A DNA stretch of 64,000 bases from Alphaproteobacteria bacterium. GTDB lineage: Bacteria; Pseudomonadota; Alphaproteobacteria; GM7ARS4; G965262615. The notes beneath the pieces are model-generated. The model ran no database searches and was not told where the DNA came from. It worked only from the letters and a program-made list of their open reading frames with translations. Position 1 is the stretch's first letter. Every line of letters begins with the position of its first letter. Positions 1 to 37,880 of this stretch are shown here, piece by piece. Where the stretch lies: assembly GCA_965262615.1 (NCBI GenBank), contig OZ253545.1, forward strand, positions 1,280,001 through 1,344,000. The letters run 5' to 3'. The translations under genes were made by a program, and so were the position numbers.

Positions 1-1330
1 ACCTTGAACATTTGCACCACCAGCAATTCTCACCGTGCTGTTGCCACCCAAATCTTCGCCCCAGTAAATGTAGGTTGCCGAAACATCCGAGCCACTGGAA
101 AAAGTCACATTGGCACTCTTGCCCGAGCCTCCCTCAACGGCAATGGCGATGTTACGAGAACTGATGCTGCCACTGTTGCTGATGGTGGCACTGGCGACAG
201 AGGATGGATGAGACAGTTCAGCCAAAATCCCCACCATCCTACTGACGCCAATGGTGGCATTCACATTGATGTCGCCACTGTTCACAATACTGATATTCCC
301 CGTGCCGATATGACTCGCCGCAATGCCACGATGACTCGTGCCACAACTCACGGTGCAAGCGGCAGAAAAACCAAGAGTGGCAGACGAATTGTTGGTGACG
401 GTCAGATTGCCCGTCCCTGTGGCAATGGCGTGAATGCCATAAAGAGATGACTCATGGCGACCAGCATTGGTGGCAAACATCAAATTCGCACCATTGACAA
501 CAGTGACGGCGTTTCGTCCTTTGACATACAACCCCGCCTGACCACGATGGCGCACTTGCACGGTGCGTGGCGTGCCGGTGGTTTGATGATTGACCGTCAG
601 ACTGCCGGTCACCCGTGAGCCTTCCCGTGCCCCATCAATACGCACACCGTGACCCGTGCCATCCGAGTTGATGGTGGTGTCGGTCACATTATTGATGGTG
701 ACGGTGAGATTGCCCGTGTGAACACCGTCTTGCAAAGAGGTGATGTCTTGAAACAAACGCCGCGCATTGATGCCTGTCCCCAACTCGCTGGCATTGCCGC
801 CCGTGCAGGTGAGGGTGGTGCTGGCAAGGGCACAGGTCATGGTGGAGGCGGTATTATTGACCACCGCCATATTGCTCCAACGAAGGGTGAGAGCGGTGGG
901 AATGGCGTTGGTGGTGGTCACGCCCAACTCAACAAAGCCCACATATTCCGTGCCATCAGCGGCAAAAATACGCACCTGAGATGCCAAGTCCGCCAAATCA
1001 AAAACACTATTGGGAACAAGAGCCGTGGCACTGATGAGGGTGAAATAGTTTTGGTCACTGATGCTATACCCAGACGGCAGATACACATGCAATGCGGTGG
1101 GGTCTTGTCCCACCGCCGCATTGACATTCACACGCCCTGATAGAGTCATGGCGGTATCAAAGACATTGCCCGTGCGGCTTAAATAAAGCCCCATGGTGGT
1201 ATTGGCATTGACGGTGAATGTCTCCAAACCGGTCACGGTGACTCCTTTTGAGCCATTGCTGGCATCCCCCACAATCAGCGTGCCACCACTGAGTGTCATG
1301 CTATCTGTTCCACCGCCAAATGCCGATGTG
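1..1330. repeat. Long intragenic direct repeat, copy of ~5386-6720 (offset 5385)
   Basis: Near-identical DNA by eye; shadow ORFs at 649/6034 and 1193/6578 are near-identical at a constant offset. Boundaries are approximate. Confidence 0.85.
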
Positions 1331-11574: not shown

Positions 11575-11662
11575 TAAAGACCACCTCCCCCACAACTCAC
11601 ACGACACCGTGCCCGCCTCACGACAGGACAAAGATGACACTATAGGATGCTATTTCAAACGA

Positions 11663-19039: not shown

Positions 19040-19165
19040 GAGTTCTCTCCTATTGATATATCACAAAAGCAAACGGCAACGAAAAAATCTGAACGCGCCG
19101 TTCATCCAAAAGACACACTACAACAAAATCAAATCATAAGCAAGAGATAAAATGATGAAAAATCA

Positions 19166-19362
19166 TGAAAAAATTCGCAGTGAAAAAATTAGCAGTGAAA
19201 AAATCAGCAGTGAAAAAATCAGCAGTGAAAAAATTAGCAGTGAAAAAATTAGCAGTGAAAAAATTAGCAGTGAAAAAATTAGCAGTGAAAAAATTAGCAG
19301 TGAAAAAATTAGCAGTGAAAAAATTAGCAGTGAAAAAATTAGCAGTGAAAAAATTAGCAGTG
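19166..19362. repeat. 15-bp tandem array, 13 units of TGAAAAAATTAGCAG (three single-base variants at the left end)
   Basis: Directly visible, with no spacers; intergenic between the 5,839-aa and 2,458-aa genes. Confidence 0.97.
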
Positions 19363-19382
19363 CCTTTACAAGCCTCCTCACA

Positions 19383-19415
19383 AGCCAATGCCTCACTCTT
19401 AGTGAGGCATTGGCT
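19383..19415 (-). terminator. Perfect 15-bp stem, 3-nt loop; terminator-like or mRNA-stabilising hairpin
   Basis: AGCCAATGCCTCACT-CTT-AGTGAGGCATTGGCT, 27 nt after the stop of the 5,839-aa gene; no strong U-tail follows directly. Confidence 0.6.
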
Positions 19416-19442
19416 AAGCTCCCCCACGGGCATCATTACACC

Positions 19443-25400: not shown

Positions 25401-28400
25401 TCCCTTAAGGCGAGAGCCTCTGTAATACAGGCGCGCATTGGCGGCGACATCAGAAAGAGATGCAACGCTCGCGGTGCCGGCGGTGATGAAGGCAAACCGA
25501 CTGCGCGCGCCCAGCACATACCCATTGGGCAGATAAATCTCCAACCGTGCGGCGCTCTCGCCTGTTCCGTTCAGAGAGTAGGCTCCGCCCAGGTTCAAAA
25601 CGGTGGAATTGGCACTGTCAAAGGAGTCGCCCAGATAAACCCGCAACGCACCACCGGCATTGGCGGTAAAGTTGTCCAATCCCGTGAGTGCGGCTCCGCT
25701 TGTGACGGCGAATGTGCCTCCCTGTTCGGCAATGACGGAATTATTGCCGAGACCAAAATCAGCCGAGCTGCCCACATTGAACGACCCGCCAGTGATTCTA
25801 ACGGTGTCATTGCCAGATCTGAGGTTAAACGAGCCACTCACATCACCGCCCGTGATATTGATATTAAAGTTGGCATTGGATGGACTTTTGACGATGGTGT
25901 CAGCCACCACGCTATTGCCGATATTGACCGTGAATGTGCGCGCCGATGAGGCAGACCCTGCGAATTCGGCGAACACCGACCCCGTGCCAAGAGCGACAGT
26001 GCCGCTGTTGGTGACGGTGATATTCCCGCTATTGTTGGTGTGACTCACATAGATGCCCACACTGTTGGTGGCGACACCGAAATCAATCGCCCCGCTGTTG
26101 GTGATGGTGGCGGCTGTTTGTCCCGTGGTGGAGTTCGTTCCGGTGTGTTCCACGAAGATGCCTCGGTGTCCCGAGCCGCAGTTGGATGTGCAAGAAACAA
26201 AGCCGATGTTTCCTTTATTGGACACGGTGGTAGCCTTGCCTCTTCCAGCAACGGCATGAATACCCCGCATATTATTGACATTGCTTCCTGCGAACACGAG
26301 GGGTGAGTTGCTCTCCACATAGAGGTCGCCGCTTGCTTTGGCGAAGATGGCGGCTCTCTCGGCAGCTCTCACCTGCACCTGTCTTCTTGTTGGGTTTTGG
26401 TTTAGGGTTTCTGTTCTGCTCTCTTTCACTTGATTGAAGACCCGCAGATCTCCCGTGACCAGCGAGCCATTGGCGGTGGCATCAAAGGTCATGCCGTGTC
26501 CTGTGCCTGAGGTGTTCACATTGGCAGAGAGGCCATCCACCCACACACGCAAGCCGCCATCAACGGCTCCTGTGTTTGTGACGAAGTTGGCGTGACCAAA
26601 GAAGCGCGAGAGCAAAAAGCCATTGGTGTATTCGCTACCCGAACCGCCCGTGCAGCTGAAGTCATTGCCGCCTGAGACGCAGGTGAGCCCGCTGGCAGTA
26701 TCCAGCATCGTCAGATTGACTACGAAATTGCCACCGGTATTGCTGAAGGTGCGCGTGAACGGACTGGCGACAACGCCTCCCAGTGTGAATCTGGCTTTGC
26801 TGACAAGACCAGCCGCGTCCGCGATAGTGGTTGTATTGGCACTGATGATGCCATAGTTGCCATTTCCTGTGCCTGTGGGCAGATGCACCACAACGGTGGG
26901 GGCGTTGCTGCCAGAACCCGAGATGCTTGCCGTCCCCGTGATGCTGAAGTTGCCAAACACTTCCAAGATACCGTTGGCATTCAGATTAAAGTTCTCCAGC
27001 CCAGTCAGCGTGACATTTGTGCTGGAAGTTCCCATGATCAATCTGCCACCGTTATTGACGGTGATGGCATCGGTGCCGCCATAGAAGTTAGAAGTGCCGA
27101 CAAGATGGAGTGTGCCGACTTGGAGTGTGCCGCCTTGGGGTGTGTTGCCGCTAACGGTGACGGTGTCATTGTCGTTGTCATCGCTGAACACCAACTGACC
27201 TTTGGCAGTGCCGCCGTTCACATTGACATTGAAAGCGAGGTCTGTGGTTGCGTTGGCGCGCACCAAAGTGCCAACATCCACCGTGCCGCCATTGAAATTG
27301 ACGGTGATGCTGTTGGATGTGGCAGTTCCCGCCGCCACATAAACGGCTCTTGAATTGCTCCCACCCGAGATATTTCCTGTGTTGGTGATGGTGACATTAC
27401 CCAAATCACTACCGCTAAAAACATAAATGGCACGATTGTAGTCAGCATCAGAGCTTCCACCGCTACCAATTGCAATATTGCCACTGTTGACGATGGTGAT
27501 GGTTCCCGTGGCGGCTCCAACCATAATGCCGCGCTGATTAGCTCCACAGTTGCTGGTGCAGGCGGATTCAAAGCCGATGTCAGCCGAGTTGGTGACCATC
27601 GCATTACCCGTGCCCGTTGCCACAACACTCAGACCTCTCATGACGCTGTTATATCCGCCGCCGCTTTTTTCGCCAAAGAACAGATTACCCTCATTGGTGA
27701 CGGTGATATTTCTGTTGGTGATGGCTTTCGCATACAGGGCGGCTTGACTGGCGGCTCTCACATAGGCGGTGAATGCGGGCGATGAGGTGGTTTGATTATT
27801 GACGATGAGATTTCCCGTCACCCGACTGCCGCCCGCAGAGCCATCAATGGTGATGGTGCTGTTCGTGGGTGATTGTGCGTCATTCCAAGCGAGGTCATTG
27901 CCGAGGTTATTGATGTTGACGGTGAGGTCGCCACTATGGATGCCCGAATTGAGGGTGCTGACTTTCTGGAAGAAGCGATTCAAATTAACACCGCCTTGCA
28001 GATACTCCCGCCCCAGATAAGGAGCGTTAAAGTCAGTCCGTCTGGGTCCTGTGCAGGCGAGGGTGCCGCTGGCGAGGGAGCAGGTGAATGCGGACGGATC
28101 CACAACCGAATAGGCATCAGTCCAAGTCAGATTGAGCTTGGTAGTGTCGTTACTGTCTCTATTGAGCGTGAAAGTGGCTCTGTAGGTTGTGTTCCCTTGC
28201 ACCAGTCTGACTCGCCGTGCCATGTCGGTGAGGGTTGTGGCACTGGCTGTGATTGCGGCGGAGGCATCAAAGATAGTGAACTCGGAACGCTGGGTGGCGA
28301 GGGTGTAGTTTTCATGAAGATACACTTCAATGACGGGGGCATTGTTTCCCGTGCCAGCAAAGGCGGTTGTTGCGGCGATGTTGGCGGCGTTAAACGAGGC

Positions 28401-31400
28401 ATCCATGTAGAGTCTCAGCGTGCCACCGGCATTGACATTGAAGTTCTCCAGCCCTGCGATGGTGACTCTGTCGGAGCCATCGGAGGCATTGCCCAAGGCG
28501 ACCGTGCCGCCGCTATTGACATTGATTGTGTCGGCATTGCCGCCGCCGAAGTTGTTGGTGTCGTTTGAGACACCTGCGATAATCAGCGTTCCCGTGCCAC
28601 TGACGGTGACGGTGTCATTGCCGCCGCCCGTGACGATGCGTCCTTGTGCCGTTCCCCCCGTGACACGCATGATAACGGGTGAATTTCCTGAGGAAGAAAC
28701 CAGATTATCGGCTTCCACGCGTCCGCCCGAGACATTGATATTGATGTTGCCCGAAGCCGAAATCGCGCCAAAGGCGGTGGTGTTCGCGCCGCCGAGGATG
28801 ACCCCAGAGCCCGAGTTGGTCATCGTCCCGCCGGTGCTACCAGAAGTCTGCACGACGATTCCTCTGTTGCCGTTGCCGGTGCCACCGGCACCCAAGAAGA
28901 TGTTGCCCTGATTGGTGACCGAGACACTGCCGCTTCCCTTATGGTCGGCGAGAATGCCGATGTGCTGATTGCCGCAGTTAGCAGAACAGCTGGATGACAC
29001 AGTGACGGTGCGGCGAATGGTCTTGGTGGCGGTGCCATTGGAGAATTCAATGACATCCTCAACCCTGCGATTGACAAACCCGATTGACCCCGTGTTGGTG
29101 ACCGTAATTCCGCCACTTCCGCCCGATTCGGCAGAGATTCCGTCAAGGTTGTTGGCGTAGCTGGTGCCATTTTGCACAAACACGAGGTCACCGCCATTGG
29201 TGATACCCACCGAGGCGGCGGCTTTCACATAGAGGGCGGCATTGCCAGAGCCACGCACTTGGATGGCGCGCGGGCTCACGCTGTTGCTTTGATTGGTGAC
29301 GGTGATATTCCCACTGACGCTGTTCGCGCCCGAAGTGCCATCAAGTTCCAAGCCATGCCCTGTGCCAGTGGCTCGGGAGTTGATATCAGCCCCAAGAGTG
29401 CCAATAGCCACACTCACATTGCGCCGATCGCCGCCCAATTCGTCATTGAGATTCACCCCCGACCCCATGCCGAATGCGCTGCCGCCGGCGCAGGTCAGGG
29501 CGGCATCATTGGTGCTGATGGTGCGTGAGCAGTCAACGGAGGGGGCGATGGATGCGGACGCTCTGAGATTCACCCATCGCACTTGCAGATTGTTGGTGTT
29601 GGGGTCTATTCTCACTTCGGCATCGGCGAAAATCTCGCGTGTCCCACGGAAGAAACGCATCCCGAGAGCCAGCCCTTGTGCCGCCGTGATGTCGGCAAGC
29701 CGCAGGTTGAGGGCGTTGTTGCTGGTGATGGTGTTAGGAAGGTTGACATCTCTGGTGGCTCTGTTGAGGGTGACGCTGCCCTGAATGAGGGTAATCCAGC
29801 TGGTGCGGTCGCCGAGCGCGACACCAGAGGGCAGGTGCATCACGATGGTTGTGCCACTGCTGTGCGTTCCATCCACGGTGACATTGGTCGTGCCAGTGAA
29901 GGTCAACCCCGCGTTACTCAAATCGTTGTTGAAATAAAGGTGCAGGGTGCTCAATCCACGCAGATGGAAGTTCTCCAGCCCCGTGATAGTGCCACCGACA
30001 GAAGCCGATGAGCCCACCGTGAGCGTTCCCGTGCCGCCCACCGTCATGGTGTCCGTTCCAGCCCCAAAGGTCAGATTGCCACTGCCGCCGAAGGAGTATG
30101 AACCCCCCGCAAAGCCGTTATTGACAGTAAAGAGAGTGGTTTGCACGCTTTGCCCGCTTTGCCCTCCCTGTGGCACATTGCGTGTGCGCGTGCCTTGATT
30201 GTAGCCGCCGCCGATGTAGAAACTGTCACTGCCTGCGCCCAGATCAATATCACCCCTGACATTCGCCAGTTCCCGCACTTCAACGATGGCATTGCCCGCA
30301 AAGCCAGTGGTATCCACGAGCGTTCCGATGGCGCTGTTGTTGAGTCCTGTTTGCGAGACGCTGATGACTCCCTTGTCACCACTGCGCGTTCCCACCAGTT
30401 TGAAGGCGGTGATGTTCGCGCCCCCTATGATTGTTCCCTTATTGCTGATGGTGATATCAACATTCGCGCTGGCACTGGTGGTATCCACCTCAATGGCGGT
30501 ACTCGCGCTATTGCCGATGCGAATCGTGCCGCTTGTTTCATTGGTAACCCGCACAAAGGATGCACTGGAGCTCTCAGCCTTGACATAAATTCCCTTGTGT
30601 CCCGAGCCACAGTTGGATGTGCAGGCTGAGCTAAAGCCCATGGTGCCGCGATTGATGACGGTGGTGTATTCGCCCAAGCCTTCCACCTGAGCGGCGATAA
30701 GATTGTCGAGGTATGAACCGCCAGCGCGTGCGAAGAAAACCAGTCCCCCATCGTTATCCAGCGTGACATTGCGATCATGTTTGATGAAAGCGGCGGCACT
30801 GCCTATAATCCGTGTTCCGATGTTTACTTTGTCGCTGTCGCTGGTGTTTTTTTGCAGATTGATCCAAAGATTGCCCGGCACCCGTGATTGGTTGGCTGTG
30901 CCATCGGCGATGAATGCGCTATCTATGTTAGAAGTTCCCACATTACCAGCGAGGTCATCCACACTGAGAGTCAAATCACCGGGCACCGAGGTGCTGAGAC
31001 CTGTGGCTTTGGAGAAAAACCGATTCATGTTCAAGCCCCTACTGAATTCGGTACCTCCTGCCGTTCCGTTCTCGCAAGAGAGGGTTGCAGCCGATGCGCT
31101 GTAGGTGCAATCCATGGTGGATGCGGTGGCTGCCGTGCCCAAAGACAGTGCTTCCCATGAGACTCGCAGAGTTTCGCCTGTGCCTTCTAACACCTTGCCG
31201 CCTTGCACAACCATTTGTCCGCCGCCCGCTTGGAACACCCGCAAGGTCATTGAGACGCCCGGCTCGCGGTCAAAGAAATTGATGGCATTGCCCGCGCCGC
31301 TCACATCAATGATGGTGAAGGCGGCGCGCGGCCCCGTGAAGGAGTAGGAATTGGGAATGGTGACATCAATATTGATGTTCTCGGGGACAAAGCTGGGATC

Positions 31401-34400
31401 CGGTCGTCCCGATGGGAGTGTGGTCACTTCGCCATCAAACGCGAGATTAGCGTTCAGCGTGAGGGGTGCGGCATCGTTGCTGGTGGAGAATCGGCTGTCC
31501 ATGAACACCCGCAAGGTTGCGCCGGCAATGACATGAAAATTCTCCAAGCCATTGAGGGTCACGCCGTCCGAGCCACTGATGGAATCGCCCACTTGGATTG
31601 TGCCACCGTCATTGACGCTGATATCATCTCTGCCACCGCCAAAATTGGATGTGCCAGAACTAATGACAAGCGTTCCGCCATCATTGACAACGGTCTGACT
31701 GTCGTTGCTGTTGAGATTGAACCGCCCTGTCGCCGTGCCACCATTGACATTGACAGCGACATAACCCGTCGCCGTGTTACTCAAACTCACCAAGTTCGTT
31801 TGACTTATCGCCGTGCCACCATTGAAATTGACGGTCATATTGCCACTCGTGCCCGAAAAACGAACGGCACTGCCAAAGGCGGTGATGGTGCCGGTGTTGG
31901 TGACCGTCTGATGCCTGCCGCCATTCATAAAAATGGCGTTGCGCGCAATGATTGTGCCACTGTTGGTGACCGTGCTAGCCGCCGCCGAACCAGAGACAGC
32001 TTCTGTGAAAATGCCATAGCTATCAGCGTTGTTGCAGTTATTGCAGGCGGTGCTAAACCCAACCCTGCCAGAATTGGTGACCGTGACCGCGCCATTATTC
32101 GCGATGGCACGAATTCCGATCAATTCACCAGCATAGGCACCGCCGCTTTGAGCAAACACGAGGTTGCCCGCATTATTGACGGTTGTCCCCAGCGCGCCCC
32201 GCACACGCAAGGCGGCTTTGCCCGACCCTCGCACAAACACATCGCGTTTTGTGCCAGTGGTCTGATTGTTGACGATGAGATTGCCCGTCACCCGAGCAAA
32301 AACCGAACCCGCCGTATCCGCACCATCAATCTCAATGCCATGACCGGTGCTGGAGGCGTTGGTGTTCACATTCGCCGCCAAATCACTGATATTGACCGTG
32401 CCTCGTCCCTCAACGCGCGTATTCAGCACGGATTCATCACCGAAAAAACTAGGAAGGGTAATTCCGTTCGCCACATTGGCGGCGACACCACCACCGCAAT
32501 TGAGCGTCACGGCACTGGCATTTTCAACGGTTCTGCCACAACCAAAGCCGAGCCCCGCCCCAGCCCATGTGAGAACCAAATTACTGCCAGCGGATTGCAG
32601 CCCTATGCTTGAGAAACTAAGCATTCTGCCACCGGCGAGTCTCACCCGCACGGCAAAATTAGAGTTAGCAAAGCCACTGGAGTATCTAACGGTTCCATTG
32701 TTGGCAATAAGCAACGCCGTGGTGATGCTCGTTGGGAACGCATAATTGGCGGGCAACACCACCTCAAGGGTGACCGTGCCACTGCCATTAAAAGTCAAGT
32801 TGCCATCTGTAAGAGTGACAGCAGAGCTTCGGCTTGCAATGATATTTGCACCCACAAACAATCGCAGAGTCGCCCCCGACCTGATGGTAAAGTTAGTCAA
32901 GCCTCTAATGCCTGAGTTTTCGGCACGGGTGGTGGCATTGCCCCATTGCAATGTGCCACCGCTATTGACATTCACGATGTCATTGCCGCCGCCAAAATTG
33001 GATGCTCCCACCAAATTCAGTGTGCCGCCGCTATTGACGGTGACACTGTCATTGCCGCCGCCAAAATCCGATCCCGCCGTCAAATTCAGTGTGCCGCCGC
33101 TCACCGTGACGGTGTCCGCACCGCCACGGAAAATAAATCTGCCTGTTGCCGTGCCGCCACGGACATTGACGGTGGTGTTACGGTTGTTGCCGCTGGCGAC
33201 TTCCACCAAGTAATCACGCGAGGAAACCGTGCCACTATTGAAATTAATGGTGGGGTTGCCCGCGAGACTTCTCAAATACACCGCCGCGCCGTCCGCCATG
33301 ATGGTGCCGGTGTTGGTGACTGTGGGCGTTCCGCCGTCCATAAAAATCGCCGTGCTGTCGGTGTGGGTGCTGGCGGTGGTTCGCACATTGATTGTGCCGG
33401 AGTTGGTGACGGAGTTCGCCCCCGAGCCCGTTGCCACATCGGAGAAAATGCCCACATGATCCGTGCCACAATTGGTGCTACAGGTGGATGCAAATCCGAT
33501 TCTGCCCGAGTTGGTGATGGTTGTGGTGTTGCCACTTCCTGCCGATGCGGCTTCAATTCCATAGAGTTCGTCTTCGTAGCCCGTGGATTTGGCGGCAAAC
33601 ACAAGATTGGCGGCATTGGTGACCGTCACCCCCGCCCTGCTGTTCACATACAGCGCAATCGCCCCCTCGCCTCGCACAAACACATCGCGTTTGGTGGTGG
33701 AATTGGTCTGATGATTCACCGTGATAGACCCCGTGATGCCATTAGTAACGCTGCCATCAATCGCAATGCCGTCATTGTCACTGGCGGTGCTGGTGTTCAC
33801 ATTGGCTCGGAAATCATTGAGGCTGATGACCCCATCCCCCGTAATGCTGGAGACCCCACTGACATTGGCAAAAATCTCAGCCAGCGTCAGACCATCCGCC
33901 GTCAGCCCGCCCGATGCCCCCGTGCAGGTGAGCGTTCTGTTGCTGTTGGATGTCCCACAGGTGATGGGAAGTGACCACGCCAGACGCAAATTCTCATTGG
34001 CTTCCGTCACAACAAGCGTATAGCCATCAACGGTGACGATGTTATCACTGCCGTCAAGCACATTCACAGTCAGCGTGGACAAAGACGCACCATTGATAAA
34101 ATCAAGAGAGTTGCTACCGCCACCCACATCAATCAAATCAAAGGCGGCGCGATCCGCGAGCGTGTAGCCCGATGGCAACCTCACATTGATGGTGATGGCA
34201 CCGCTGCCGTCAAACTGCAGATTGCCCGTAGAGAAAAAGAAGGCTCTGGAGGAGGTGGTGGTGAAGTTGCTGTCCAAAAAGATATTCAGAGTCGCACCGC
34301 TTTTGATGGTGAAGGTGGACAAACTAGAGAGGGTGACATTGTCCGAGCCATCGGCGGCATCGCCCAAATTCAATGTGGCACCGCTATTGACCGTGAGAGA

Positions 34401-36962
34401 ATCCGTGCCACCGCCAAAATTGGATGTGCCGCTTGACAGAGTCGTTGTGCCACCACGCACGGTGACGGCATCATTACCGCCCCCTAAGGTGATGCGCCCC
34501 GTTGCCGTGCCGCGAATGCTGACGGTCGTCGCACCCGCAAAGGTGGAATTCACCAAATACTGCCCACTCACCGTGCCAGATTGGAAATTGATGGTGGCAT
34601 TGTCATCGGACGCACCGCCCGTGAGAACCACCACCCCGCCGGTGCTACTGATGTTTCCCGAATTGCTGATGTTAATAGATGCCGTTGTTGAGCCCGCGTC
34701 CACGCGAATGCCAGCCGCCGTCACGCCTGCCCCTCCGAGACTGATGCGCGCCCCATTGGTCACCGTCACCGAGCCCGTGCCACCATGATTCACATAAATG
34801 CCGCGATGCCCCGAGCCACAATTGATGGTGCAGACAGAAGAAAAGCCAATCCGCCCCGTGCCTTGCGTGGTGATGTTCACATTGCCCGTGCCACCCGAGA
34901 CGGCTTCAATGCCGCGCCTGTTGCTGTTTGCAGTCCCCGTAAACACCAAAGCCGCCGCATTGTTGATGGTCACCGAGCGATTGCTTTTCACATACAACGC
35001 CGCTTGGTTTGCTCCCCGCACATTGGCAGCTCGCCGTGTGGCAGAAGAGGTTTGATTATTGACGGTCAAATCCTGCGACACGGTGCTTCCGCTCGCCGTG
35101 CCATCAAAGGTCATGGCGCGCCCCGTGCCAGAGCTGGAATTGCTCACAACACCAGTAAGGTTGTTCAAATTCACCGTCAAACTGCCCGTGTGCGAGCCAC
35201 TGATGAGACCCGTGTCGGCAAACATACGGTTCATATTAAGACCATTCCTGAATTCATTGTCAACCACCGAGCCACCGGTGCATCCCAAGACATTGGACGC
35301 GTAGCTACAGCTCATGGATGATGGCTCCACATTGGTCCACACCACCCGCAGATTCTCGCCTGATGCCTCACTCACCGCAAAGCCATACAGATTCTGAACG
35401 GCATTGCCCTTCAGCACCCGCACATTGAAGGTGGTGTTAGAGCCAATATCAAGGGTGTTGCCAGAACCAGTCACATCAATCAAATCGGTGACGCGATAGC
35501 CAAGCGTGTAGCCCGAAGGCACTTCAATATCAAGATTGACAGCACCACTGCCAGCAAAACTCAAATCGCCCCTGAAAATCATTTTGTTAAAGGAGCTATC
35601 CATAAACACCCTCAAGGTGGCACCGGAATTGACGGTGAATGCCGTTGTGCCTTGCGTTGAACTCCTTGTATTGAAGGTCACGCCATCGGAGCCACCCGAA
35701 GCCGTGCCAAGGTGCAACGCGCCACCGCTATTGACACGCACATTATCCGTATTATTGCCAGTGCCAAAATCCGATGACCCAATCAGCACAAGAGTGCCGC
35801 CGTTGTTCACATTGATGGTGCTCGCACCCGCATTCAAATCCAAACGCCCCGTTGCCGTGCCGCCACCGACATTAATATTGACCGTGTTGGTTGAGCTATC
35901 AGACGCAACCACCAAATGCTGCGAGGAACGCACCGTGCCACCATTGAAATTGATCGTGAAATTGCTCGCACCCTCCAACTCAACCACCGTTCCAGCTCCC
36001 ACATTGATATTGCCGGTGTTGGTGATGGTGCTACTGACAGAATTGGCAGCCGCATAAATGCCAACATGACCCGTGCCACCCACACTGCCCGCAAAGCCAA
36101 TTCTGCCACTGTTGTTGATATTCACATTAGTGCCGTCCGCCTCAATGCCCACCAAATCATCGTTGGTGCTGGCAAAATCAAGGTCGGCGGCATTGTTGAT
36201 GGTCACCCGAGTGGGTGCAACGCCAAGAATCGCGACCGCGCCCTCCCCGCGAATCTGAATGGTTCTGACCGTGCCAGTCTGACCCGCGCCATTAGAACCC
36301 GTGCCAGTCGTCTGATTGTTGATGGTGAGAGCCCTCTCTGCCCGCAGTGTGCCACCAGTCAAATCAACACTGATGCCATCGGCATTGCTGTTTGATGCCG
36401 TGTTCACATTAGCCGACAGATTGCGTATTCTGATGAGAAGTGAGACAGCACCTTGATTTTTATGCTCACCTGTCGGCGAGAGTTCGGATTCCGTCAGCCC
36501 GTTGTTCAAGTCGCTCGCCGCTCCCCCCGCACACTCAAACACCACCAAAGACGAATTGCCCGTGCCGAGGGCGCATGTCAATGCCTGGGCGATTGCCTTA
36601 TGATTGCCGTCACGCTGATTATTATTGCCTGCCGCGGCTGTGGCATTGGCATAGGCGCGGTCGGAATCGGAGCAATGAATCATTCCCCATGGGCTATGGG
36701 CGGTTGTGGCATCGCCACACGCCACGCTCTCATCGCCACTCATGACAAGCCCCGAGACTTGCGGGCCTCCCGCGTAAGACGGCGATGCCAGCATCACCGC
36801 CATCGCACAGACCTGCACCACCCAAAGCGTGCCGTATGTCAGAAAAGACTGTGGCGTGAGCCGTTTTCCCACTCCTTCAGTTTTTTTGGCAGTCCTGCTG
36901 GCAATCGTGCTTGCATCTCGCCGCTTTGTTGTGAAAATCCAAGATAACAGTGATGTCGCCAT
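19443..36962 (-). CDS. Giant autotransporter adhesin, 5,839 aa, 11 Cys-pair modules plus C-terminal beta-barrel
   Basis: GAAGGAG RBS; extended signal region ending ASPSYA|G; 11 modules starting with a Cys pair (LTCALG, MSCSYA, ITCGTS, FGCGRT, MDCTYS, VDCSRT, FTCSLA, LTCVSG, FGCAPA, MDCRLG, MNCSYT); barrel homologous to that of 11663-19039, ending ARLRLSF. Confidence 0.88.
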   Translation of the reverse strand: MATSLLSWIFTTKRRDASTIASRTAKKTEGVGKRLTPQSFLTYGTLWVVQVCAMAVMLASPSYAGGPQVSGLVMSGDESVACGDATTAHSPWGMIHCSDSDRAYANATAAAGNNNQRDGNHKAIAQALTCALGTGNSSLVVFECAGGAASDLNNGLTESELSPTGEHKNQGAVSLLIRIRNLSANVNTASNSNADGISVDLTGGTLRAERALTINNQTTGTGSNGAGQTGTVRTIQIRGEGAVAILGVAPTRVTINNAADLDFASTNDDLVGIEADGTNVNINNSGRIGFAGSVGGTGHVGIYAAANSVSSTITNTGNINVGAGTVVELEGASNFTINFNGGTVRSSQHLVVASDSSTNTVNINVGGGTATGRLDLNAGASTINVNNGGTLVLIGSSDFGTGNNTDNVRVNSGGALHLGTASGGSDGVTFNTRSSTQGTTAFTVNSGATLRVFMDSSFNKMIFRGDLSFAGSGAVNLDIEVPSGYTLGYRVTDLIDVTGSGNTLDIGSNTTFNVRVLKGNAVQNLYGFAVSEASGENLRVVWTNVEPSSMSCSYASNVLGCTGGSVVDNEFRNGLNMNRMFADTGLISGSHTGSLTVNLNNLTGVVSNSSSGTGRAMTFDGTASGSTVSQDLTVNNQTSSATRRAANVRGANQAALYVKSNRSVTINNAAALVFTGTANSNRRGIEAVSGGTGNVNITTQGTGRIGFSSVCTINCGSGHRGIYVNHGGTGSVTVTNGARISLGGAGVTAAGIRVDAGSTTASINISNSGNISSTGGVVVLTGGASDDNATINFQSGTVSGQYLVNSTFAGATTVSIRGTATGRITLGGGNDAVTVRGGTTTLSSGTSNFGGGTDSLTVNSGATLNLGDAADGSDNVTLSSLSTFTIKSGATLNIFLDSNFTTTSSRAFFFSTGNLQFDGSGAITINVRLPSGYTLADRAAFDLIDVGGGSNSLDFINGASLSTLTVNVLDGSDNIVTVDGYTLVVTEANENLRLAWSLPITCGTSNSNRTLTCTGASGGLTADGLTLAEIFANVSGVSSITGDGVISLNDFRANVNTSTASDNDGIAIDGSVTNGITGSITVNHQTNSTTKRDVFVRGEGAIALYVNSRAGVTVTNAANLVFAAKSTGYEDELYGIEAASAGSGNTTTITNSGRIGFASTCSTNCGTDHVGIFSDVATGSGANSVTNSGTINVRTTASTHTDSTAIFMDGGTPTVTNTGTIMADGAAVYLRSLAGNPTINFNSGTVSSRDYLVEVASGNNRNTTVNVRGGTATGRFIFRGGADTVTVSGGTLNLTAGSDFGGGNDSVTVNSGGTLNLVGASNFGGGNDIVNVNSGGTLQWGNATTRAENSGIRGLTNFTIRSGATLRLFVGANIIASRSSAVTLTDGNLTFNGSGTVTLEVVLPANYAFPTSITTALLIANNGTVRYSSGFANSNFAVRVRLAGGRMLSFSSIGLQSAGSNLVLTWAGAGLGFGCGRTVENASAVTLNCGGGVAANVANGITLPSFFGDESVLNTRVEGRGTVNISDLAANVNTNASSTGHGIEIDGADTAGSVFARVTGNLIVNNQTTGTKRDVFVRGSGKAALRVRGALGTTVNNAGNLVFAQSGGAYAGELIGIRAIANNGAVTVTNSGRVGFSTACNNCNNADSYGIFTEAVSGSAAASTVTNSGTIIARNAIFMNGGRHQTVTNTGTITAFGSAVRFSGTSGNMTVNFNGGTAISQTNLVSLSNTATGYVAVNVNGGTATGRFNLNSNDSQTVVNDGGTLVISSGTSNFGGGRDDISVNDGGTIQVGDSISGSDGVTLNGLENFHVIAGATLRVFMDSRFSTSNDAAPLTLNANLAFDGEVTTLPSGRPDPSFVPENINIDVTIPNSYSFTGPRAAFTIIDVSGAGNAINFFDREPGVSMTLRVFQAGGGQMVVQGGKVLEGTGETLRVSWEALSLGTAATASTMDCTYSASAATLSCENGTAGGTEFSRGLNMNRFFSKATGLSTSVPGDLTLSVDDLAGNVGTSNIDSAFIADGTANQSRVPGNLWINLQKNTSDSDKVNIGTRIIGSAAAFIKHDRNVTLDNDGGLVFFARAGGSYLDNLIAAQVEGLGEYTTVINRGTMGFSSACTSNCGSGHKGIYVKAESSSASFVRVTNETSGTIRIGNSASTAIEVDTTSASANVDITISNKGTIIGGANITAFKLVGTRSGDKGVISVSQTGLNNSAIGTLVDTTGFAGNAIVEVRELANVRGDIDLGAGSDSFYIGGGYNQGTRTRNVPQGGQSGQSVQTTLFTVNNGFAGGSYSFGGSGNLTFGAGTDTMTVGGTGTLTVGSSASVGGTITGLENFHLRGLSTLHLYFNNDLSNAGLTFTGTTNVTVDGTHSSGTTIVMHLPSGVALGDRTSWITLIQGSVTLNRATRDVNLPNTITSNNALNLRLADITAAQGLALGMRFFRGTREIFADAEVRIDPNTNNLQVRWVNLRASASIAPSVDCSRTISTNDAALTCAGGSAFGMGSGVNLNDELGGDRRNVSVAIGTLGADINSRATGTGHGLELDGTSGANSVSGNITVTNQSNSVSPRAIQVRGSGNAALYVKAAASVGITNGGDLVFVQNGTSYANNLDGISAESGGSGGITVTNTGSIGFVNRRVEDVIEFSNGTATKTIRRTVTVSSSCSANCGNQHIGILADHKGSGSVSVTNQGNIFLGAGGTGNGNRGIVVQTSGSTGGTMTNSGSGVILGGANTTAFGAISASGNININVSGGRVEADNLVSSSGNSPVIMRVTGGTAQGRIVTGGGNDTVTVSGTGTLIIAGVSNDTNNFGGGNADTINVNSGGTVALGNASDGSDRVTIAGLENFNVNAGGTLRLYMDASFNAANIAATTAFAGTGNNAPVIEVYLHENYTLATQRSEFTIFDASAAITASATTLTDMARRVRLVQGNTTYRATFTLNRDSNDTTKLNLTWTDAYSVVDPSAFTCSLASGTLACTGPRRTDFNAPYLGREYLQGGVNLNRFFQKVSTLNSGIHSGDLTVNINNLGNDLAWNDAQSPTNSTITIDGSAGGSRVTGNLIVNNQTTSSPAFTAYVRAASQAALYAKAITNRNITVTNEGNLFFGEKSGGGYNSVMRGLSVVATGTGNAMVTNSADIGFESACTSNCGANQRGIMVGAATGTITIVNSGNIAIGSGGSSDADYNRAIYVFSGSDLGNVTITNTGNISGGSNSRAVYVAAGTATSNSITVNFNGGTVDVGTLVRANATTDLAFNVNVNGGTAKGQLVFSDDNDNDTVTVSGNTPQGGTLQVGTLHLVGTSNFYGGTDAITVNNGGRLIMGTSSTNVTLTGLENFNLNANGILEVFGNFSITGTASISGSGSNAPTVVVHLPTGTGNGNYGIISANTTTIADAAGLVSKARFTLGGVVASPFTRTFSNTGGNFVVNLTMLDTASGLTCVSGGNDFSCTGGSGSEYTNGFLLSRFFGHANFVTNTGAVDGGLRVWVDGLSANVNTSGTGHGMTFDATANGSLVTGDLRVFNQVKESRTETLNQNPTRRQVQVRAAERAAIFAKASGDLYVESNSPLVFAGSNVNNMRGIHAVAGRGKATTVSNKGNIGFVSCTSNCGSGHRGIFVEHTGTNSTTGQTAATITNSGAIDFGVATNSVGIYVSHTNNSGNITVTNSGTVALGTGSVFAEFAGSASSARTFTVNIGNSVVADTIVKSPSNANFNINITGGDVSGSFNLRSGNDTVRITGGSFNVGSSADFGLGNNSVIAEQGGTFAVTSGAALTGLDNFTANAGGALRVYLGDSFDSANSTVLNLGGAYSLNGTGESAARLEIYLPNGYVLGARSRFAFITAGTASVASLSDVAANARLYYRGSRLKGTLNVIQSGSTLQLEWLGDISYLDFGCAPAAGVTNAFNCSGGVVSEVEDGLASIVIFEAAGITSSVANPTFNFDDLAANVGSKSNIDTNGHGIVVDATLSSSLSGNLTVNNQVNTASADKVDVFVRGLAHITTHVAALYVKSDAGVTVNNAADLVFHRAEGTTSWLCVTTGSCPDANRPSNPYRNNLAGITAVSAGSGSVAITNSAAIGFNGNCTDISCGGGHRGINVQHGGSGTVTITNSGDINIQRGAAFYVEHGNNSGDVTITSSGNITVQDDHSAVRIANTGSSSQTVTINLTGGDITAGEIVTTSSTANFKVNLNISSTDVMGSLSLGRGNDTVTVSDSAKFTLGSPFNFGAGDDSLIVRDRAQIIAGNATDGSDDVQLNGLESVTFSNSASLTLFLDSGFNAAYSAWTTAQANLSTVTANSSSTQAQIRAAQTALRVALGALDAKAFKVQGQVAFQGRGNNAPIIRIHLPSGFALEGAGRVPRPDFTIIATQRIYRTNPGSVASAGVTAESLRDMASRVRIIQDGQILSVASYLTIRGFDSLNLGWVTTGAPNFNVSQMDCRLGGEIVNCSGGVLGSNEFNSGISLIGILERLGVVTLGDEAQTGFVETGFVLNLDNLVSHVNLTGSGYGIYVDGRSSLSEVRGNLTVNNQVRTADDDKKDVYVRASEQAGIFVNSAKAATVTNAGNIFFRKIGNTANYSNAMIALSANSLGAGRLHVTNNARIGFDEVCIAVTNGANCGSELIGISASQHEAGATIVVNNGSINVGGGNDAIFVQQLGGVGTVTITNNGNITAKNAVIFSQIDGDPASDTAVINFSGGVVRTAALVHADRFNFEDLDSPDVDLSTLDLNAAVCNDADTTNDTDACKVDSGFVGKVTVNVTGGLNVGNFVFNRAVSSDDTVNVTGGILVLPSVTADGGAGGVSDFGRGTDTLSVGRGGTLVLGSPYVAGSSSDPNETSIPTGSSSIQFSGLENFNLNAGATLRLYLDDSVSSNSVNAARINSTVSINSSANIDINLPSGYTIGDKTAFTLIDATALDVGSLRILSNRVRIFDSGGVLYQGTITLSQSGEDLQIAWSDLTQFAGASSMNCSYTSIARSIQCSGGDASDTEFSHGMNLTRIFNDVSFGRGGLYNNGQYSGNLTINLSGLTTTVNTAGLGHGIAIEAVTVVPDDPTDSNTTFTTTRYIAGDLTVNNQVTGTRGEVQVRGGTNAALYVAAAANVTVNNAADLRFKTKDTGFYDDSLTGLSVSSLENTTGSITVVNSGDIGFASSCVPQCGEGHIGIAIGHSATGDVSVTNVGNIAMGSGGVERLSINIPGQAPVTSEIVTANTAILLTVPYGNNVTVTNTGNITGGEYSSAVGIIAGAGAQNRVINFNGGEVKTDEIVNGELALGGTTTVNVNAGTEVEGRFNFGGTIAAGAETVNVNSGGTLVITNGESKFGAGADAIVVNEGGHLNLSNDATGGSDGVTISGLETFTLNAKSTLSVYLDSNFNAFSMATSIAINGGSDAPTLVINLPVGYDLAARSAFTLIGVTGTNTVTVDAATLRGLANNVRLVRGSQRFKGGSALTFSLSADGTNLQMAWNDSLEAIKFNEIARGLGGDDNQSSVALALSNAAERSGNPNLYRDLFNAVEDSGDAKNLESSLAPIYGSLVQSSWFAGHRFVNEVMENFCSRHRVTGLKKLSYSEHSTRNKRTSCGRADIWSSVTRKSDDDGAVGFEENSLFNFGGFWSRGLNKHFTFSGAVSYGLINHESNRGGESYGHRVSGAAVLHLTQNGALQRNGFIASAGATVSGSIFDVDRDTVGGGSVTSDVSMVTYGLHARGGLRLTLLGDMFIEPRGGISFSQLFMQETQEEVSRRVQGTSDFNLALDDGRHSFTSLHGSVMMGDQWQLSNSMQMEPSLKAGLTYIATGTDIDVNSRFVGDLNEQNFIAYNNDMDRLFVDISTGFLLFGDEEMLGSLDYEGMFSLIGKTRRHSARLRLSF

Positions 36963-37100: not shown

Positions 37101-37844
37101 CTATAAACAGCCAGCCACAAAATTACGGAATAACGCGGCGTCTCTCTCGCTCAACAAAAATTCTGGATGCCACTGAACCCCCACACAAAAACGATGGCTC
37201 GGGGATTCTATGCCCTCAATGATGCCATCGGTGGCGCGAGCATTGACAATCAAACCCGTCCCAACTCGCGCAATCGCCTGATGATGAGCCGAATTCACCG
37301 CACATTGATGCACCCCCAACCACTCATCCGCCAAGCGTGTGCCCGCCTCAATCAGCACATCATGAGAGGGGCGACTGCGCGGCGGCGGTTGCTCATGATT
37401 CATCGCCTGCGGCGCATCCATGCCAATATCCTGCAACAAACTGCCCCCAAAAGACACATTAAGAACCTGCGCCCCACCGCATATCCCCAAAACGGGCTTA
37501 TCGCGCCGCAAAATCTCTTTGGTGATTGCCAGCTCAAAATCCGTGCGTTCATGACAAATCCTCATGCCCTCATAACGAATTGTCTCACCATAACACGCGG
37601 GGTCAATATCAAAATCACCCCCGGTGACGAGCAAACCGCTAAGAAGTTCGCCGTAATGAGAAACCAATTCCATATGAGGCAAGAGCAAAATCGGAATTCC
37701 TCCCGCCTTATAAATCGCCTCACCATAAAGCCAAAAAACATGCAATCGCCGCCGTGGCGGCACTCCCGCCTCATCCTCATCCATCGTAATGCCAATTCGC
37801 GCCTTGCGTTTAGTCGTGATGTCAATTCGTGCCTTGCGTTCCAT
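37101..37844 (-). CDS. Peptidase C26 / gamma-glutamyl-gamma-aminobutyrate hydrolase family (class I glutamine amidotransferase)
   Basis: IGIT, TGGDFDIDP, LGICGG nucleophile Cys, VNSAHHQ, GVQWHPE; ATG 37844 preferred over TTG 37880. Confidence 0.9.
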   Translation of the reverse strand: MERKARIDITTKRKARIGITMDEDEAGVPPRRRLHVFWLYGEAIYKAGGIPILLLPHMELVSHYGELLSGLLVTGGDFDIDPACYGETIRYEGMRICHERTDFELAITKEILRRDKPVLGICGGAQVLNVSFGGSLLQDIGMDAPQAMNHEQPPPRSRPSHDVLIEAGTRLADEWLGVHQCAVNSAHHQAIARVGTGLIVNARATDGIIEGIESPSHRFCVGVQWHPEFLLSERDAALFRNFVAGCL

Positions 37845-37880
37845 AGTGAAGATGATACCTTGATTTTTCGGCAAATTCAA

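What the first reader, a model, noticed from the sequence alone, without database searches (positions are those of the whole stretch)
1..36962. At least 37 kb of tandem giant autotransporters built from one Cys-pair module
Seen: three co-oriented genes (5,839, 2,458 and >3,850 aa) contain 11, 4 and at least 9 copies of one ~430-530 aa unit with a fixed motif order: C-x(8-13)-C-xGG; RxF; GHG..DG; VTGNLTVNxQT; VRG..AALY; GF.S.CTxNCGxxHRGI; INFxGGxV; LGxGND; GDAxxGSDGV..GLExF; LPSGYxL..R..FxLI; LxxxW. Established: classical type Va passengers are mostly one continuous, Cys-poor beta-helix, and adhesins this large usually use T1SS or two-partner secretion. Inference: each unit is a self-contained beta-helix with a disulfide-capped start and its own autochaperone-like end. 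That would give a 'polymeric passenger' folding module by module through one barrel. This is the best candidate for an undescribed host-attachment system here.
Basis: partly seen in the sequence, partly recalled or inferred. Interest (0 to 1): 0.85.

Follow-up and report, generated by a model that had tools for sequence, protein, structure and literature searches.

The report
Giant multi-module autotransporter adhesin cluster
A marine bacterium with a very small genome spends about 6% of its DNA on outer-membrane 'autotransporter' proteins up to 11,294 residues long, whose exported part is a chain of up to 24 copies of one previously uncatalogued 450-residue beta-helix domain; this is an extreme, barely studied way of building a surface fibre.

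Summary
Three co-oriented minus-strand genes are intact. The third gene runs off the window: in the genome it is one 11,294-aa frame with 24 modules. All three end in a PF03797 autotransporter domain above Pfam's cut-off. The modelled end of the 2,458-aa protein superposes on AaaA, NalP, EstA and EspP at Z 25-30.

An AlphaFold2 model of two modules (pLDDT 89.7) gives two separate right-handed beta-helix domains. Each starts with a Cys-stapled hairpin and short helices. The 'autochaperone-like end' found no sequence support.

The module has no Pfam or PDB sequence match. It was found in 0 of 400 other genomes of the class. Full-length matches in 1.84 billion proteins appear to be sister strains.

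The idea is not unprecedented. BigE (10,429 aa, an eight-fold repeated passenger segment) was reported in 2012, and other giant autotransporters show Cys-pair-delimited units. The scan had noted other giant beta-helix proteins on other DNA, none with this module.

Verdict: new variant of a known kind.

The parts
19443..36962 (-). Gene A: 5,839-aa type Va autotransporter. Signal peptide, small N-terminal Cys-pair tip, 11 modules, linker and beta-barrel.
   Evidence: Intact ORF and translation. 11 module matches by profile. PF03797 at 49.6 bits on the last 399 aa.
36771..36962 (-). Gene A N-terminus, residues 1-64: long charged leader, then a hydrophobic core ending ...MLASPSYA|GG. Probable Sec signal peptide.
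   Evidence: Read from the translation. No signal-peptide predictor was on hand. No ESPR hit in Pfam.
20643..36575 (-). Gene A module array: 11 modules of 422-540 aa, starting at residues 130, 552, 1002, 1475, 1952, 2478, 2961, 3428, 3880, 4420 and 4948.
   Evidence: Cys positions, cutting and identity matrix with 25-40% identity between the modules of this gene, alignment A1.
19446..20642 (-). Gene A helical linker plus 12-strand-type beta-barrel translocator. The protein ends ...RLRLSF.
   Evidence: PF03797 at residues 125-364 of this piece, 49.6 bits. 38% identical to the gene B domain.
19166..19362 (.). 15-bp tandem repeat, 13.1 copies (CACTGCTAATTTTTT on the gene strand), in the spacer upstream of gene B. 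A hairpin at about 19381-19411 lies just downstream of the gene A stop.
   Evidence: An X5 contig replaces 19179-19437 (257 bases) with 151 letters, so the length differs between strains.
11663..19039 (-). Gene B: 2,458-aa type Va autotransporter with 4 modules. The true start may be the Met at residue 20, where the sister-strain protein P0004 begins.
12878..18712 (-). Gene B module array: modules start at residues 110, 591, 1057 and 1522. Module 4 carries a 20-aa coil repeated 4.3 times (13360-13616) and a core that varies between strains (about residues 1651-1800).
   Evidence: The X5 contig does not cover 13594-14118.
11666..12877 (-). Gene B linker helices plus beta-barrel. The protein ends ...TFKLSF.
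   Evidence: PF03797 at 44.4 bits. In the AF2 model the barrel part has pLDDT about 75-95. VIA Z 30.4 to AaaA, 27.9 to NalP, 26.9 to EstA, 25.6 to EspP.
1..11640 (-). Gene C, first 3,880 of 11,294 residues. The gene runs a further 22.2 kb beyond the window start, to genome position 1257768, and ends in a PF03797 barrel (...TLQLFF).
   Evidence: PF03797 at 36.4 and 35.7 bits.
1..11481 (-). Gene C modules 1-9; the ninth is cut by the window edge. From module 3 on, two module types alternate as a di-module super-repeat of about 2.66 kb.
   Evidence: The whole gene has 24 modules, and modules 3-17 alternate, with 72-92% identity among even and 53-96% among odd modules. DNA self-matches reach 5.8 kb at about 90%, at offsets that are multiples of about 2.66 kb.

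Best explanation
These are three tandem classical (type Va) autotransporters. Each passenger is a chain of discrete right-handed beta-helix domains of about 450 aa: 11, 4 and 24 copies.

Proposed steps, all inferred unless marked:
1. The protein crosses the inner membrane by Sec.
2. In the periplasm, only very short disulfide loops can form. Every Cys has a partner 2-25 residues away (shown).
3. The C-terminal 12-strand barrel is inserted by the single BamA (presence of the genes shown).
4. The passenger is threaded out from its C-terminal end, and each module folds outside in turn, so that each folded module stops back-sliding.
5. A module's C-terminal hairpin cap would emerge first. Its N-terminal Cys-stapled hairpin and short helices would seal the helix core last.

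The product would be a segmented surface fibre. Scaled from Fap2 (2,905 residues = 47 nm), it would be roughly 30, 85 and 175 nm long if the modules lie end to end.

The most likely role is attachment to a host, matrix or partner surface, or a surface coat, in a marine and probably sponge-associated alphaproteobacterium. Module cores are swapped between strains, as expected for exposed, selected surfaces.
For: Barrel:
- PF03797 above cut-off on all three genes.
- Fold match to solved type Va translocators at Z 25-30 and rmsd 2.4-3.3. The nearest non-autotransporter barrels reach Z 17 or less.
- The proteins end in F.

Passenger fold:
- AF2 on a 20-row alignment of two-module pieces gives pLDDT 89.7 and pTM 0.68, almost all beta.
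- Foldseek's best hits are the autotransporter passengers Hap, SepA, IgA1 protease, EspP, Ag43, Hbp and pertactin.

Domain boundary at the module period:
- Single-domain beta-helices (RbmB, AlgE4 A-module, polygalacturonases, inulin lyases, tailspikes) align at Z 16-19.5 and rmsd 3.4-4.
- They align to residues 1-~440 or to 453-~870, not across the junction.
- Spans of both modules have rmsd 20-28.
- A hairpin plus two short helices recur at residues 2-29 and 451-483.

Cys rule:
- All Cys of the mature proteins lie in pairs 2-25 residues apart.
- This fits the published consensus that only disulfides between closely spaced Cys are tolerated in autotransporter passengers (PMC3546941, passages read).

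Machinery: one Omp85/BamA and one DsbA-like gene are present; no TamB was found.

Selection and exposure:
- The frames are intact over 34 kb.
- Sister-strain orthologues are 96-100% identical in most 50-aa bins but 28-46% in a module core.

Habitat:
- Close copies occur in runs labelled marine and sponge metagenome.
- Earlier scan notes call the genome a sponge-symbiont alphaproteobacterium (not checked here).
Against: - No expression or localisation data. No RNA run holds the stretch.
- I had no model coordinates. The domain boundary rests on aligned ranges, secondary structure and pTM, not on measured geometry.
- The junction is short (about 7 residues) and confidently modelled, so the modules may stack into a quasi-continuous rod and not behave as beads.
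- The expected autochaperone signature is absent.
- A 4,846-aa paralogue elsewhere in the genome carries the same modules behind a lipoprotein-type start, with no PF03797 hit. The module is therefore not tied to type Va export.
- No secretion of a passenger this long has been shown. The longest passenger in the largest adhesin group of a 2022 review is 3,333 aa (PMC9289746, passage read).
- The module count in the 11,294-aa gene depends on one assembly with 90%-identical 2.66-kb repeats.
Confidence: 0.72

Rival explanations
1. Each module is a carbohydrate-binding or carbohydrate-cleaving unit of the pectate-lyase/CASH type. The proteins would then be multivalent lectins or poly-enzymes acting on host or biofilm glycans, and the fibre shape would be secondary.
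For: - The top structural matches to single modules are polysaccharide lyases, epimerases, glycosidases and phage tailspikes: RbmB Z 19.5, AlgE4 A-module 19.2, inulin lyase 19.1, polygalacturonase 18.6.
- Polar residues are conserved across modules that are only 23-50% identical: GHG..DG, N.Q, HRGI, with Q86 and N185 invariant.
Against: - Identity to those enzymes is 7-16%, and no enzyme family is hit in Pfam, NCBIfam or PDB by sequence.
- The same fold is the standard autotransporter stalk.
- Catalytic residues could not be mapped without coordinates.
Confidence: 0.15
2. The period only records how the gene grew by duplication. The passenger folds as one continuous beta-helical rod, as in Fap2, with no functional domain boundaries.
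For: - The inter-module linker is only about 7 residues with pLDDT 84-90.
- Fap2 aligns over model residues 4-870 at Z 17.3.
- Coil-level repeats also expand: a 20-aa unit occurs 4.3 times.
Against: - That Fap2 alignment has rmsd 21.3.
- All low-rmsd alignments stop at the junction.
- A hairpin and helices, typical end caps, recur at each period.
- pTM is 0.68 although pLDDT is 89.7.
Confidence: 0.12
3. The proteins form a dense protective coat, like an S-layer or a shield against being eaten, and do not act as specific adhesins.
For: - 5.9% of a 1.54-Mb genome and at least five loci carry the module.
- Strain mosaics fit pressure from phages or host recognition.
Against: There is no evidence on abundance or lattice formation. 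Nothing here separates a coat from an adhesin.
Confidence: 0.1
4. The genes are silent, decaying or misassembled repeat DNA.
For: - One paralogous locus (genome 264-281 kb) is broken where the sister-strain protein P0155 reads through.
- No RNA holder is listed.
Against: - There are no stops in 11,294, 5,839 and 2,458 codons.
- The barrels are 96-100% conserved between strains.
- Independent contigs from other studies cover the genes and their junctions.
Confidence: 0.03

Closest known systems
BigE, a 10,429-aa betaproteobacterial autotransporter (Celik et al. 2012, PMC3419190; passages and the Figure S1 legend read, file not seen)
   Same: A giant classical autotransporter whose size comes from replication of a passenger segment: a segment matching residues 220-528 of a smaller Ralstonia relative (about 309 aa) repeated 8 times, plus other repeats. 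It was called the largest known autotransporter at the time. It was noted only by bioinformatics; my full-text search found it in that one paper.
   Different: - Here the unit is longer (about 450 aa) and is a whole capped beta-helix domain with two Cys pairs.
- There are 24 copies in one protein, which is longer (11,294 aa).
- Three such genes lie in tandem.
- Sequence relatedness to BigE was not tested, because its sequence was not on hand.
Fap2 of Fusobacterium nucleatum (PDB 9qe7; PMC12397386, passages read)
   Same: A very large type Va adhesin with a beta-helical rod: 2,905 helix residues make 47 nm, with a kink that splits the rod in two. It is among the structural hits.
   Different: - Fap2 is an essentially continuous helix with one kink.
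- The word 'disulfide' does not occur in that paper's text, and no periodic caps are described.
- It is a third of the length.
- Its alignment across both modules has rmsd 21.3.
Classical beta-helix passengers with an AC_1 or Pertactin autochaperone (Ag43, pertactin, Hap, EspP, Hbp)
   Same: Same barrel family and same passenger fold class.
   Different: - Those have one helix and one autochaperone.
- Here no AC_1 or Pertactin signal was found, whereas the Ag43 control scores 67 bits for AC_1.
- Here the passenger is a polymer of capped helices.
Other giant database proteins with Cys-pair-delimited units (P0057 6,744 aa; P0040 4,295 aa; P0150 3,715 aa; P0088 5,114 aa)
   Same: One short Cys pair per repeated unit of 430-1,230 aa. 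P0057 ends in PF03797 at 109 bits. The same building principle has therefore arisen or spread elsewhere.
   Different: - They match only the central coils of the module profile, at E 1e-8 to 1e-23.
- Unit lengths and motifs differ.
- The P0150 tail has no Pfam hit.
Region IV of the giant Marinomonas RTX adhesin, the Ca2+-dependent beta-helical antifreeze protein (PDB 3p4g)
   Same: It has the highest identity among the top structural hits: Z 18.2, rmsd 3.8, 277 of 313 residues, 16%. The modules carry G.G.D.U.U turns 20-23 residues apart, 27 in the three proteins against about 1 in shuffles. From memory, this resembles that protein's Ca2+-binding coil motif.
   Different: - That adhesin is exported by type I secretion.
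- There is no significant sequence match and no RTX Pfam hit.
- Ca2+ binding is untested here.
AlgE mannuronan epimerases (A-module, PDB 2pyh)
   Same: Secreted proteins made of repeated beta-helix modules of about 385 aa. The A-module aligns to one module at Z 19.2.
   Different: - They are enzymes with one or two A-modules (recalled) and, as I recall, are exported by a type I route.
- Identity is 7%.
- The epimerase motifs were not looked for here.

Membership tests
Type Va (classical monomeric) autotransporter | C-terminal autotransporter beta-domain (Pfam PF03797) above the curated cut-off | tested here: met
   49.6 bits (gene A), 44.4 bits (gene B), and 36.4 and 35.7 bits (gene C), against a cut-off of 26. 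Whole-protein scans missed it; only the isolated C-termini score.
Type Va (classical monomeric) autotransporter | 12-stranded barrel with an alpha-helical linker leading into it | tested here: met
   The AF2 model of gene B residues 1930-2458 has about 12 long strands from residue 241 to 528, preceded by a helix at 195-215. VIA gives AaaA Z 30.4 (rmsd 2.4, 312 aligned), NalP 27.9, EstA 26.9, EspP 25.6 and AIDA-I 25.1, with alignments starting at 151-192, so the helix is included. This is a prediction, not a solved structure.
Type Va (classical monomeric) autotransporter | N-terminal Sec signal peptide | tested here: inconclusive
   Hydrophobic cores ending in A-x-A-type sites are visible in all three N-termini. 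No predictor was available, and there is no ESPR hit.
Type Va (classical monomeric) autotransporter | Beta-helical passenger | tested here: met
   The AF2 model is almost all beta with pLDDT 89.7. Foldseek's top hits are autotransporter passengers. Right-handed beta-helix domains align at Z 16-19.5.
Type Va (classical monomeric) autotransporter | Autochaperone domain (PF18883 AC_1 or PF03212 Pertactin) at the passenger's C-terminal end. It is prevalent in, but not required for, beta-helical passengers. | tested here: not met
   0 of 23 module C-terminal segments hit either family at E<=10. hhalign against Ag43 AC_1 gives probability 0.1%. The genome-wide best AC_1 score is 13.3 bits against a cut-off of 27.1. 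As a positive control, Ag43 scores 67.1 bits.
Type Va (classical monomeric) autotransporter | Terminal aromatic residue (beta-signal) | tested here: met
   The proteins end ...RLRLSF...TFKLSF and ...TLQLFF.
Type Va (classical monomeric) autotransporter | Passenger actually exported to the cell surface | not testable with these tools
   Needs expression with protease accessibility tests, or proteomics.
Right-handed parallel beta-helix (pectate-lyase-like) fold | A single module superposes on solved members over most of the domain | tested here: met
   RbmB has 292 of 360 residues aligned at rmsd 3.6, Z 19.5. AlgE4 has 310 of 376 at rmsd 3.6, Z 19.2. Both modules are matched separately, at 1-~440 and 453-~870.
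BigA pectate-lyase-like passenger domains (Pfam PF27417, PF27415, PF25783; names seen only in the Atlas listing) | Match to those Pfam models | not tested
   Atlas feature scores are 0.85-0.92, which are leads only. PF27417 is not in the Pfam copy on hand.
RTX / type I secreted repeat adhesins | HemolysinCabind nonapeptide repeats and a C-terminal T1SS signal | tested here: not met
   No RTX family appears in the Pfam scans of modules or of the whole proteins. The C-termini are autotransporter barrels.

The most novel reading that the evidence does not exclude
A passenger of about 10,800 residues (roughly 1.1-1.2 MDa) is exported through one 12-strand barrel, in a cell with BamA but no detectable TAM. 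This would work because the passenger is divided into 24 self-capping beta-helix units that fold one after another outside the cell. Short disulfide staples, and possibly Ca2+-binding G.G.D turns that fold in seawater calcium, would make each unit an independent ratchet. If so, this is a general design rule for very long type Va fibres, also seen in unrelated giants with one Cys pair per unit. It would also give a natural set of 4-, 11- and 24-unit proteins for testing how passenger length limits autotransport.
Probability: 0.3. Interest if true: 0.8.

Novelty: new variant of a known kind. Interest (0 to 1): 0.6.

Why it matters
Type Va secretion is studied almost entirely on passengers of 300-3,300 residues that form one beta-helix. 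Three questions remain open: how far the mechanism scales, what drives export without ATP, and how much folded or disulfide-bonded structure the pore tolerates.

This locus offers a natural length series of 4, 11 and 24 copies of the same unit on related barrels. Its Cys spacing obeys the 'closely spaced' rule throughout. The host genome appears to lack TAM.

The module is a new family that could be added to domain databases. It would help annotate giant 'hypothetical' genes in marine symbiont genomes.

A 1.54-Mb genome that invests about 6% of its DNA in these proteins, beside an expanded Sel1-repeat family noted earlier by the scan, points to the cell surface as the main interface of this symbiosis.

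The strain-to-strain mosaic module cores and the variable 15-bp repeat in front of gene B suggest that the surface is also varied and regulated.

Tried and rejected
- Whole-protein Pfam and NCBIfam scans gave only sub-threshold noise, as did scans of four related database proteins. Long repetitive proteins must be scanned in pieces.
- The search for related loci with the module alignment failed for lack of a conserved 7-10-column stretch.
- PDB sequence search with the module profile gave 3 chance-level hits at E 0.34-0.91.
- The autochaperone reading gave nothing: Pfam on the 23 C-terminal segments, hhalign against Ag43 AC_1, and a genome-wide AC_1 search.
- The last module's cap in the barrel model has pLDDT 37-56, because the alignment had only 6 rows, so it says nothing about an autochaperone-like fold.
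- No RNA holder is listed among the sequencing runs, so there is no statement on expression.
- Contig depth over the repeats is 3-8 times that of unique parts. The tool warns that depth is not copy number, so I did not use it.
- Promoter and terminator scans around the gene starts gave counts near the shuffle expectation.
- The Pfam BigA domain models could not be tested.
- The C-terminal 800 aa of the 4,846-aa lipoprotein-type paralogue has no Pfam hit. A subtilase-like motif seen by eye was therefore not confirmed.
- My self-BLAST of P0040, P0057, P0088 and P0150 returned no rows under my filter. Their periods are given from Cys spacing only.
- I rejected the pseudogene or assembly-artefact reading for the three window genes (see rivals).
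Full report
OBSERVATION

The three minus-strand frames exist as described: 19443-36962 (5,839 aa), 11663-19039 (2,458 aa) and 1-11640 (3,880 aa, open at the window edge) (translations). Their Cys positions are strikingly regular. Cutting at the first Cys of each period gives 11, 4 and 9 units of 422-540 aa, the last one cut by the window.

Its invariant columns are C1, C10, G23, Q86, G155, N185, I189, G271 and G301. Units are 23-94% identical and score 300-559 bits against their own profile, so chance is excluded. Only the first unit of the 5,839-aa protein lacks it.

EXTENT

- The window lies at 1280001-1344000 of a single 1,542,258-base contig with 51.4% G+C.
- The third gene is one 11,294-aa open frame with 24 units. 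Units 3-17 alternate between two types: even units are 72-92% alike and odd units 53-96% alike.
- At the DNA level this is a di-module super-repeat of about 2.66 kb. Self-matches reach 5.8 kb at about 90% identity, and the longest exact repeat is 397 bases.
- The tandem cluster spans 59,198 bases.
- The same unit also fills a 5,057-aa plus 941-aa pair of frames at 264-281 kb. This copy stops where the sister-strain protein P0155 reads through, so it is broken here.
- It also fills a 4,846-aa frame at 700-714 kb. That frame begins like a lipoprotein and has no autotransporter domain hit.
- Together the module-bearing frames come to 91.3 kb, 5.9% of the genome.

WHAT THE ENDS ARE

Whole-protein scans found nothing. 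The isolated C-termini match Pfam PF03797 above its 26-bit cut-off:

| Gene | PF03797 score |
|---|---|
| A (5,839 aa) | 49.6 bits |
| B (2,458 aa) | 44.4 bits |
| C (11,294 aa) | 36.4 and 35.7 bits |

An AlphaFold2 model of the last 529 residues of gene B was built on a 6-row alignment. Its barrel part has pLDDT about 75-95. It shows helices followed by about twelve long strands. It superposes on solved type Va translocators, helix included: AaaA Z 30.4 (rmsd 2.4), NalP 27.9, EstA 26.9, EspP 25.6 and AIDA-I 25.1. Other barrel families reach Z 17 or less. The proteins end in F. N-terminal hydrophobic cores with A-x-A-type sites are visible by eye, but no predictor was available.

I conclude that all three are classical type Va autotransporters.

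WHAT THE UNIT IS

By sequence, the unit has no Pfam or NCBIfam family and no PDB relative.

I folded a two-unit piece (929 aa) with a 20-row alignment of all consecutive unit pairs in the window. The result was pLDDT 89.7 and pTM 0.68, almost all beta. Foldseek's best hits are autotransporter passengers (Hap, SepA, IgA1 protease, EspP, Ag43, Hbp, pertactin) but with TM only 0.13-0.23.

The second-look aligner explains that low TM:
- Single-domain right-handed beta-helices (RbmB, AlgE4 A-module, inulin lyases, polygalacturonases, tailspikes, the Ca2+-dependent antifreeze helix 3p4g) fit at Z 16-19.5 and rmsd 3.4-4.
- They fit either residues 1-~440 or residues 453-~870.
- Every alignment that spans both units (Fap2, two-domain PL6 lyases, pertactin) has rmsd 20-28.
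- Each unit opens with a two-strand hairpin that carries the first Cys pair, then two short helices (2-29 and 451-483). Each closes with a helix and a hairpin.

So the model supports a domain boundary at the period. The caveats are that I had no coordinates and that the linker is only about 7 well-modelled residues. The units may therefore stack into a stiff segmented rod.

THE AUTOCHAPERONE CLAIM

None of the 23 C-terminal segments hits AC_1 or Pertactin at E<=10. hhalign of their profile against the Ag43 AC_1 domain gives probability 0.1%; that domain was located with Pfam at 67.1 bits as a control. The best AC_1 score anywhere in the genome is 13.3 bits. The end cap is real in the model, but its kinship or likeness to autochaperones is unsupported.

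CYSTEINES AND MACHINERY

Every Cys of the mature proteins has a partner 2-25 residues away, including the pair just before the barrel. This fits the published consensus that autotransporter passengers tolerate only disulfides between closely spaced Cys (PMC3546941, passages read). The genome has one Omp85/BamA, one DsbA-like gene and no TamB match.

The units also hold 27 G.G.D.U.U turns spaced 20-23 residues apart, against about 1 expected from shuffles. In module 4 of gene B, a 20-aa coil carrying this turn is repeated 4.3 times. From memory, this resembles the Ca2+-binding coils of 3p4g, which is the top hit with the highest identity at 16%. This is a lead, not a finding.

DISTRIBUTION

A profile search of 1.84 billion representative proteins gave 295 hits at E<=1e-3, 112 at E<=1e-10 and 26 at E<=1e-30. 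About 20 of these cover most of the profile. Those I inspected are orthologues, fragments from sister strains, or copies of the lipoprotein-type paralogue. The weaker hits match only profile positions about 100-340, many times over, which is the generic coil pattern of autotransporter stalks.

The unit was not found in 0 of 40 relatives at E<=1e-10 (3 of the same order), nor in 0 of 400 other genomes of the class at E<=1e-15. A word-based search with the barrel found 4 proteins, all of this lineage.

STRAINS

Orthologues of gene B are 96-100% identical in most 50-aa bins, but 28-46% identical at residues 1651-1800, a module core. A 17.6-kb contig from another study fails to cover that same stretch, 13594-14118. 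Close copies occur in runs labelled marine metagenome and sponge metagenome. Earlier scan notes call the genome an uncultivated alphaproteobacterial sponge symbiont (not checked by me).

PRECEDENT

- Celik et al. 2012 described BigE: 10,429 aa, 'the largest known autotransporter', with an eight-fold replication of a passenger segment (PMC3419190, passages and the Figure S1 legend read). My full-text search found BigE in that paper only.
- Among functionally reviewed adhesins of one large group, passengers reach 3,333 aa (PMC9289746, passage read).
- Fap2's 2,905-residue helix is 47 nm long (PMC12397386, passages read).
- Among my distant hits, P0057 (6,744 aa) ends in PF03797 (109 bits) and has nine C-x10-14-C pairs, one per unit of 550-1,230 aa. 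P0040, P0150 and P0088 are similar.

The principle of a replicated passenger is therefore in print, and Cys-pair-delimited units recur elsewhere. The new points here are the unit family, the evidence that the unit is a capped beta-helix domain, the scale (24 units, 11,294 aa, three tandem genes, about 6% of a reduced genome) and the strain mosaicism. I did not survey current databases for longer autotransporters.

MECHANISM

Shown:
- the barrel family;
- the predicted beta-helix units with caps at the period;
- short-range Cys pairs throughout;
- BamA and DsbA present, TamB not found.

Inferred:
- Sec export;
- formation of small disulfide loops in the periplasm;
- C-to-N threading with unit-by-unit folding outside the cell as successive ratchets;
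- a segmented fibre of roughly 30, 85 and 175 nm, scaled from Fap2;
- a role in attachment or as a surface coat.

The rivals are: a glycan-active or lectin unit, a continuous rod, a protective coat, and silent DNA. They are weighed in their own sections.

VERDICT

This is a new variant of a known kind, of real interest to the type V secretion and symbiosis fields, but not categorically new.

Noticed in passing
window 19166-19362 (spacer between gene A stop and gene B start): A 15-bp unit is repeated 13.1 times at 98% matches. It sits just upstream of a weak promoter-like site and downstream of a hairpin. A contig from another study has 151 letters where the window has 257, so repeat number probably varies between strains. 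It may be a regulatory or phase-variable element for genes B and C.
   Followed up: partly
G000:C1:699825-714362 (+), locus L012: A 4,846-aa frame has a lipoprotein-type start (...LAACGGGGG), about 9 of the same modules, and a C-terminal 800 aa with no Pfam hit and no PF03797. Fragments of the same type are in the protein library (P0008, P0018, P0020). The module is thus also used on a protein that may reach the surface by another route.
   Followed up: partly
G000:C1:264453-281392 (-), locus L013: A paralogous giant gene is split into 941-aa and 5,057-aa frames, with one TGA between them. It stops inside its last module, where the sister-strain protein P0155 continues into a barrel. This is a frameshifted or decaying copy, or a sequencing error.
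   Followed up: partly
window 13360-13616: A 60-bp (20-aa) coil unit is repeated 4.3 times inside module 4 of gene B, each copy carrying a GGGND turn. The helix therefore also grows one coil at a time.
   Followed up: partly
window 36576-36770 and 18713-18880 (N-terminal tips of genes A and B): Between the signal peptide and the first module there is a conserved tip of about 45 aa with its own Cys pair (VAC.D.....SPWGM..C.D.DRA.AN). It is present in genes A and B and absent from gene C. No Pfam hit.
   Followed up: no
G000:C1:964712-968491 and 970850-975280 (loci L014, L015): Two further proteins of 1,260 and 1,477 aa. The first has PF03797 at 67 bits; the second aligns with the barrels and ends in F but gave no PF03797 match. 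Their passengers match only the central coils of the module profile.
   Followed up: no
whole genome G000: No TamB (PF04357) match and only one Omp85-family gene in a genome that is 98.3% complete and encodes these giant autotransporters.
   Followed up: partly
window 37167-38402 (+): The gene next to the cluster encodes 411 aa. Only its C-terminal 145 aa match TadA-type deaminase, at 91 bits and below the cut-off. The 240-aa N-terminal extension is unexplained.
   Followed up: no
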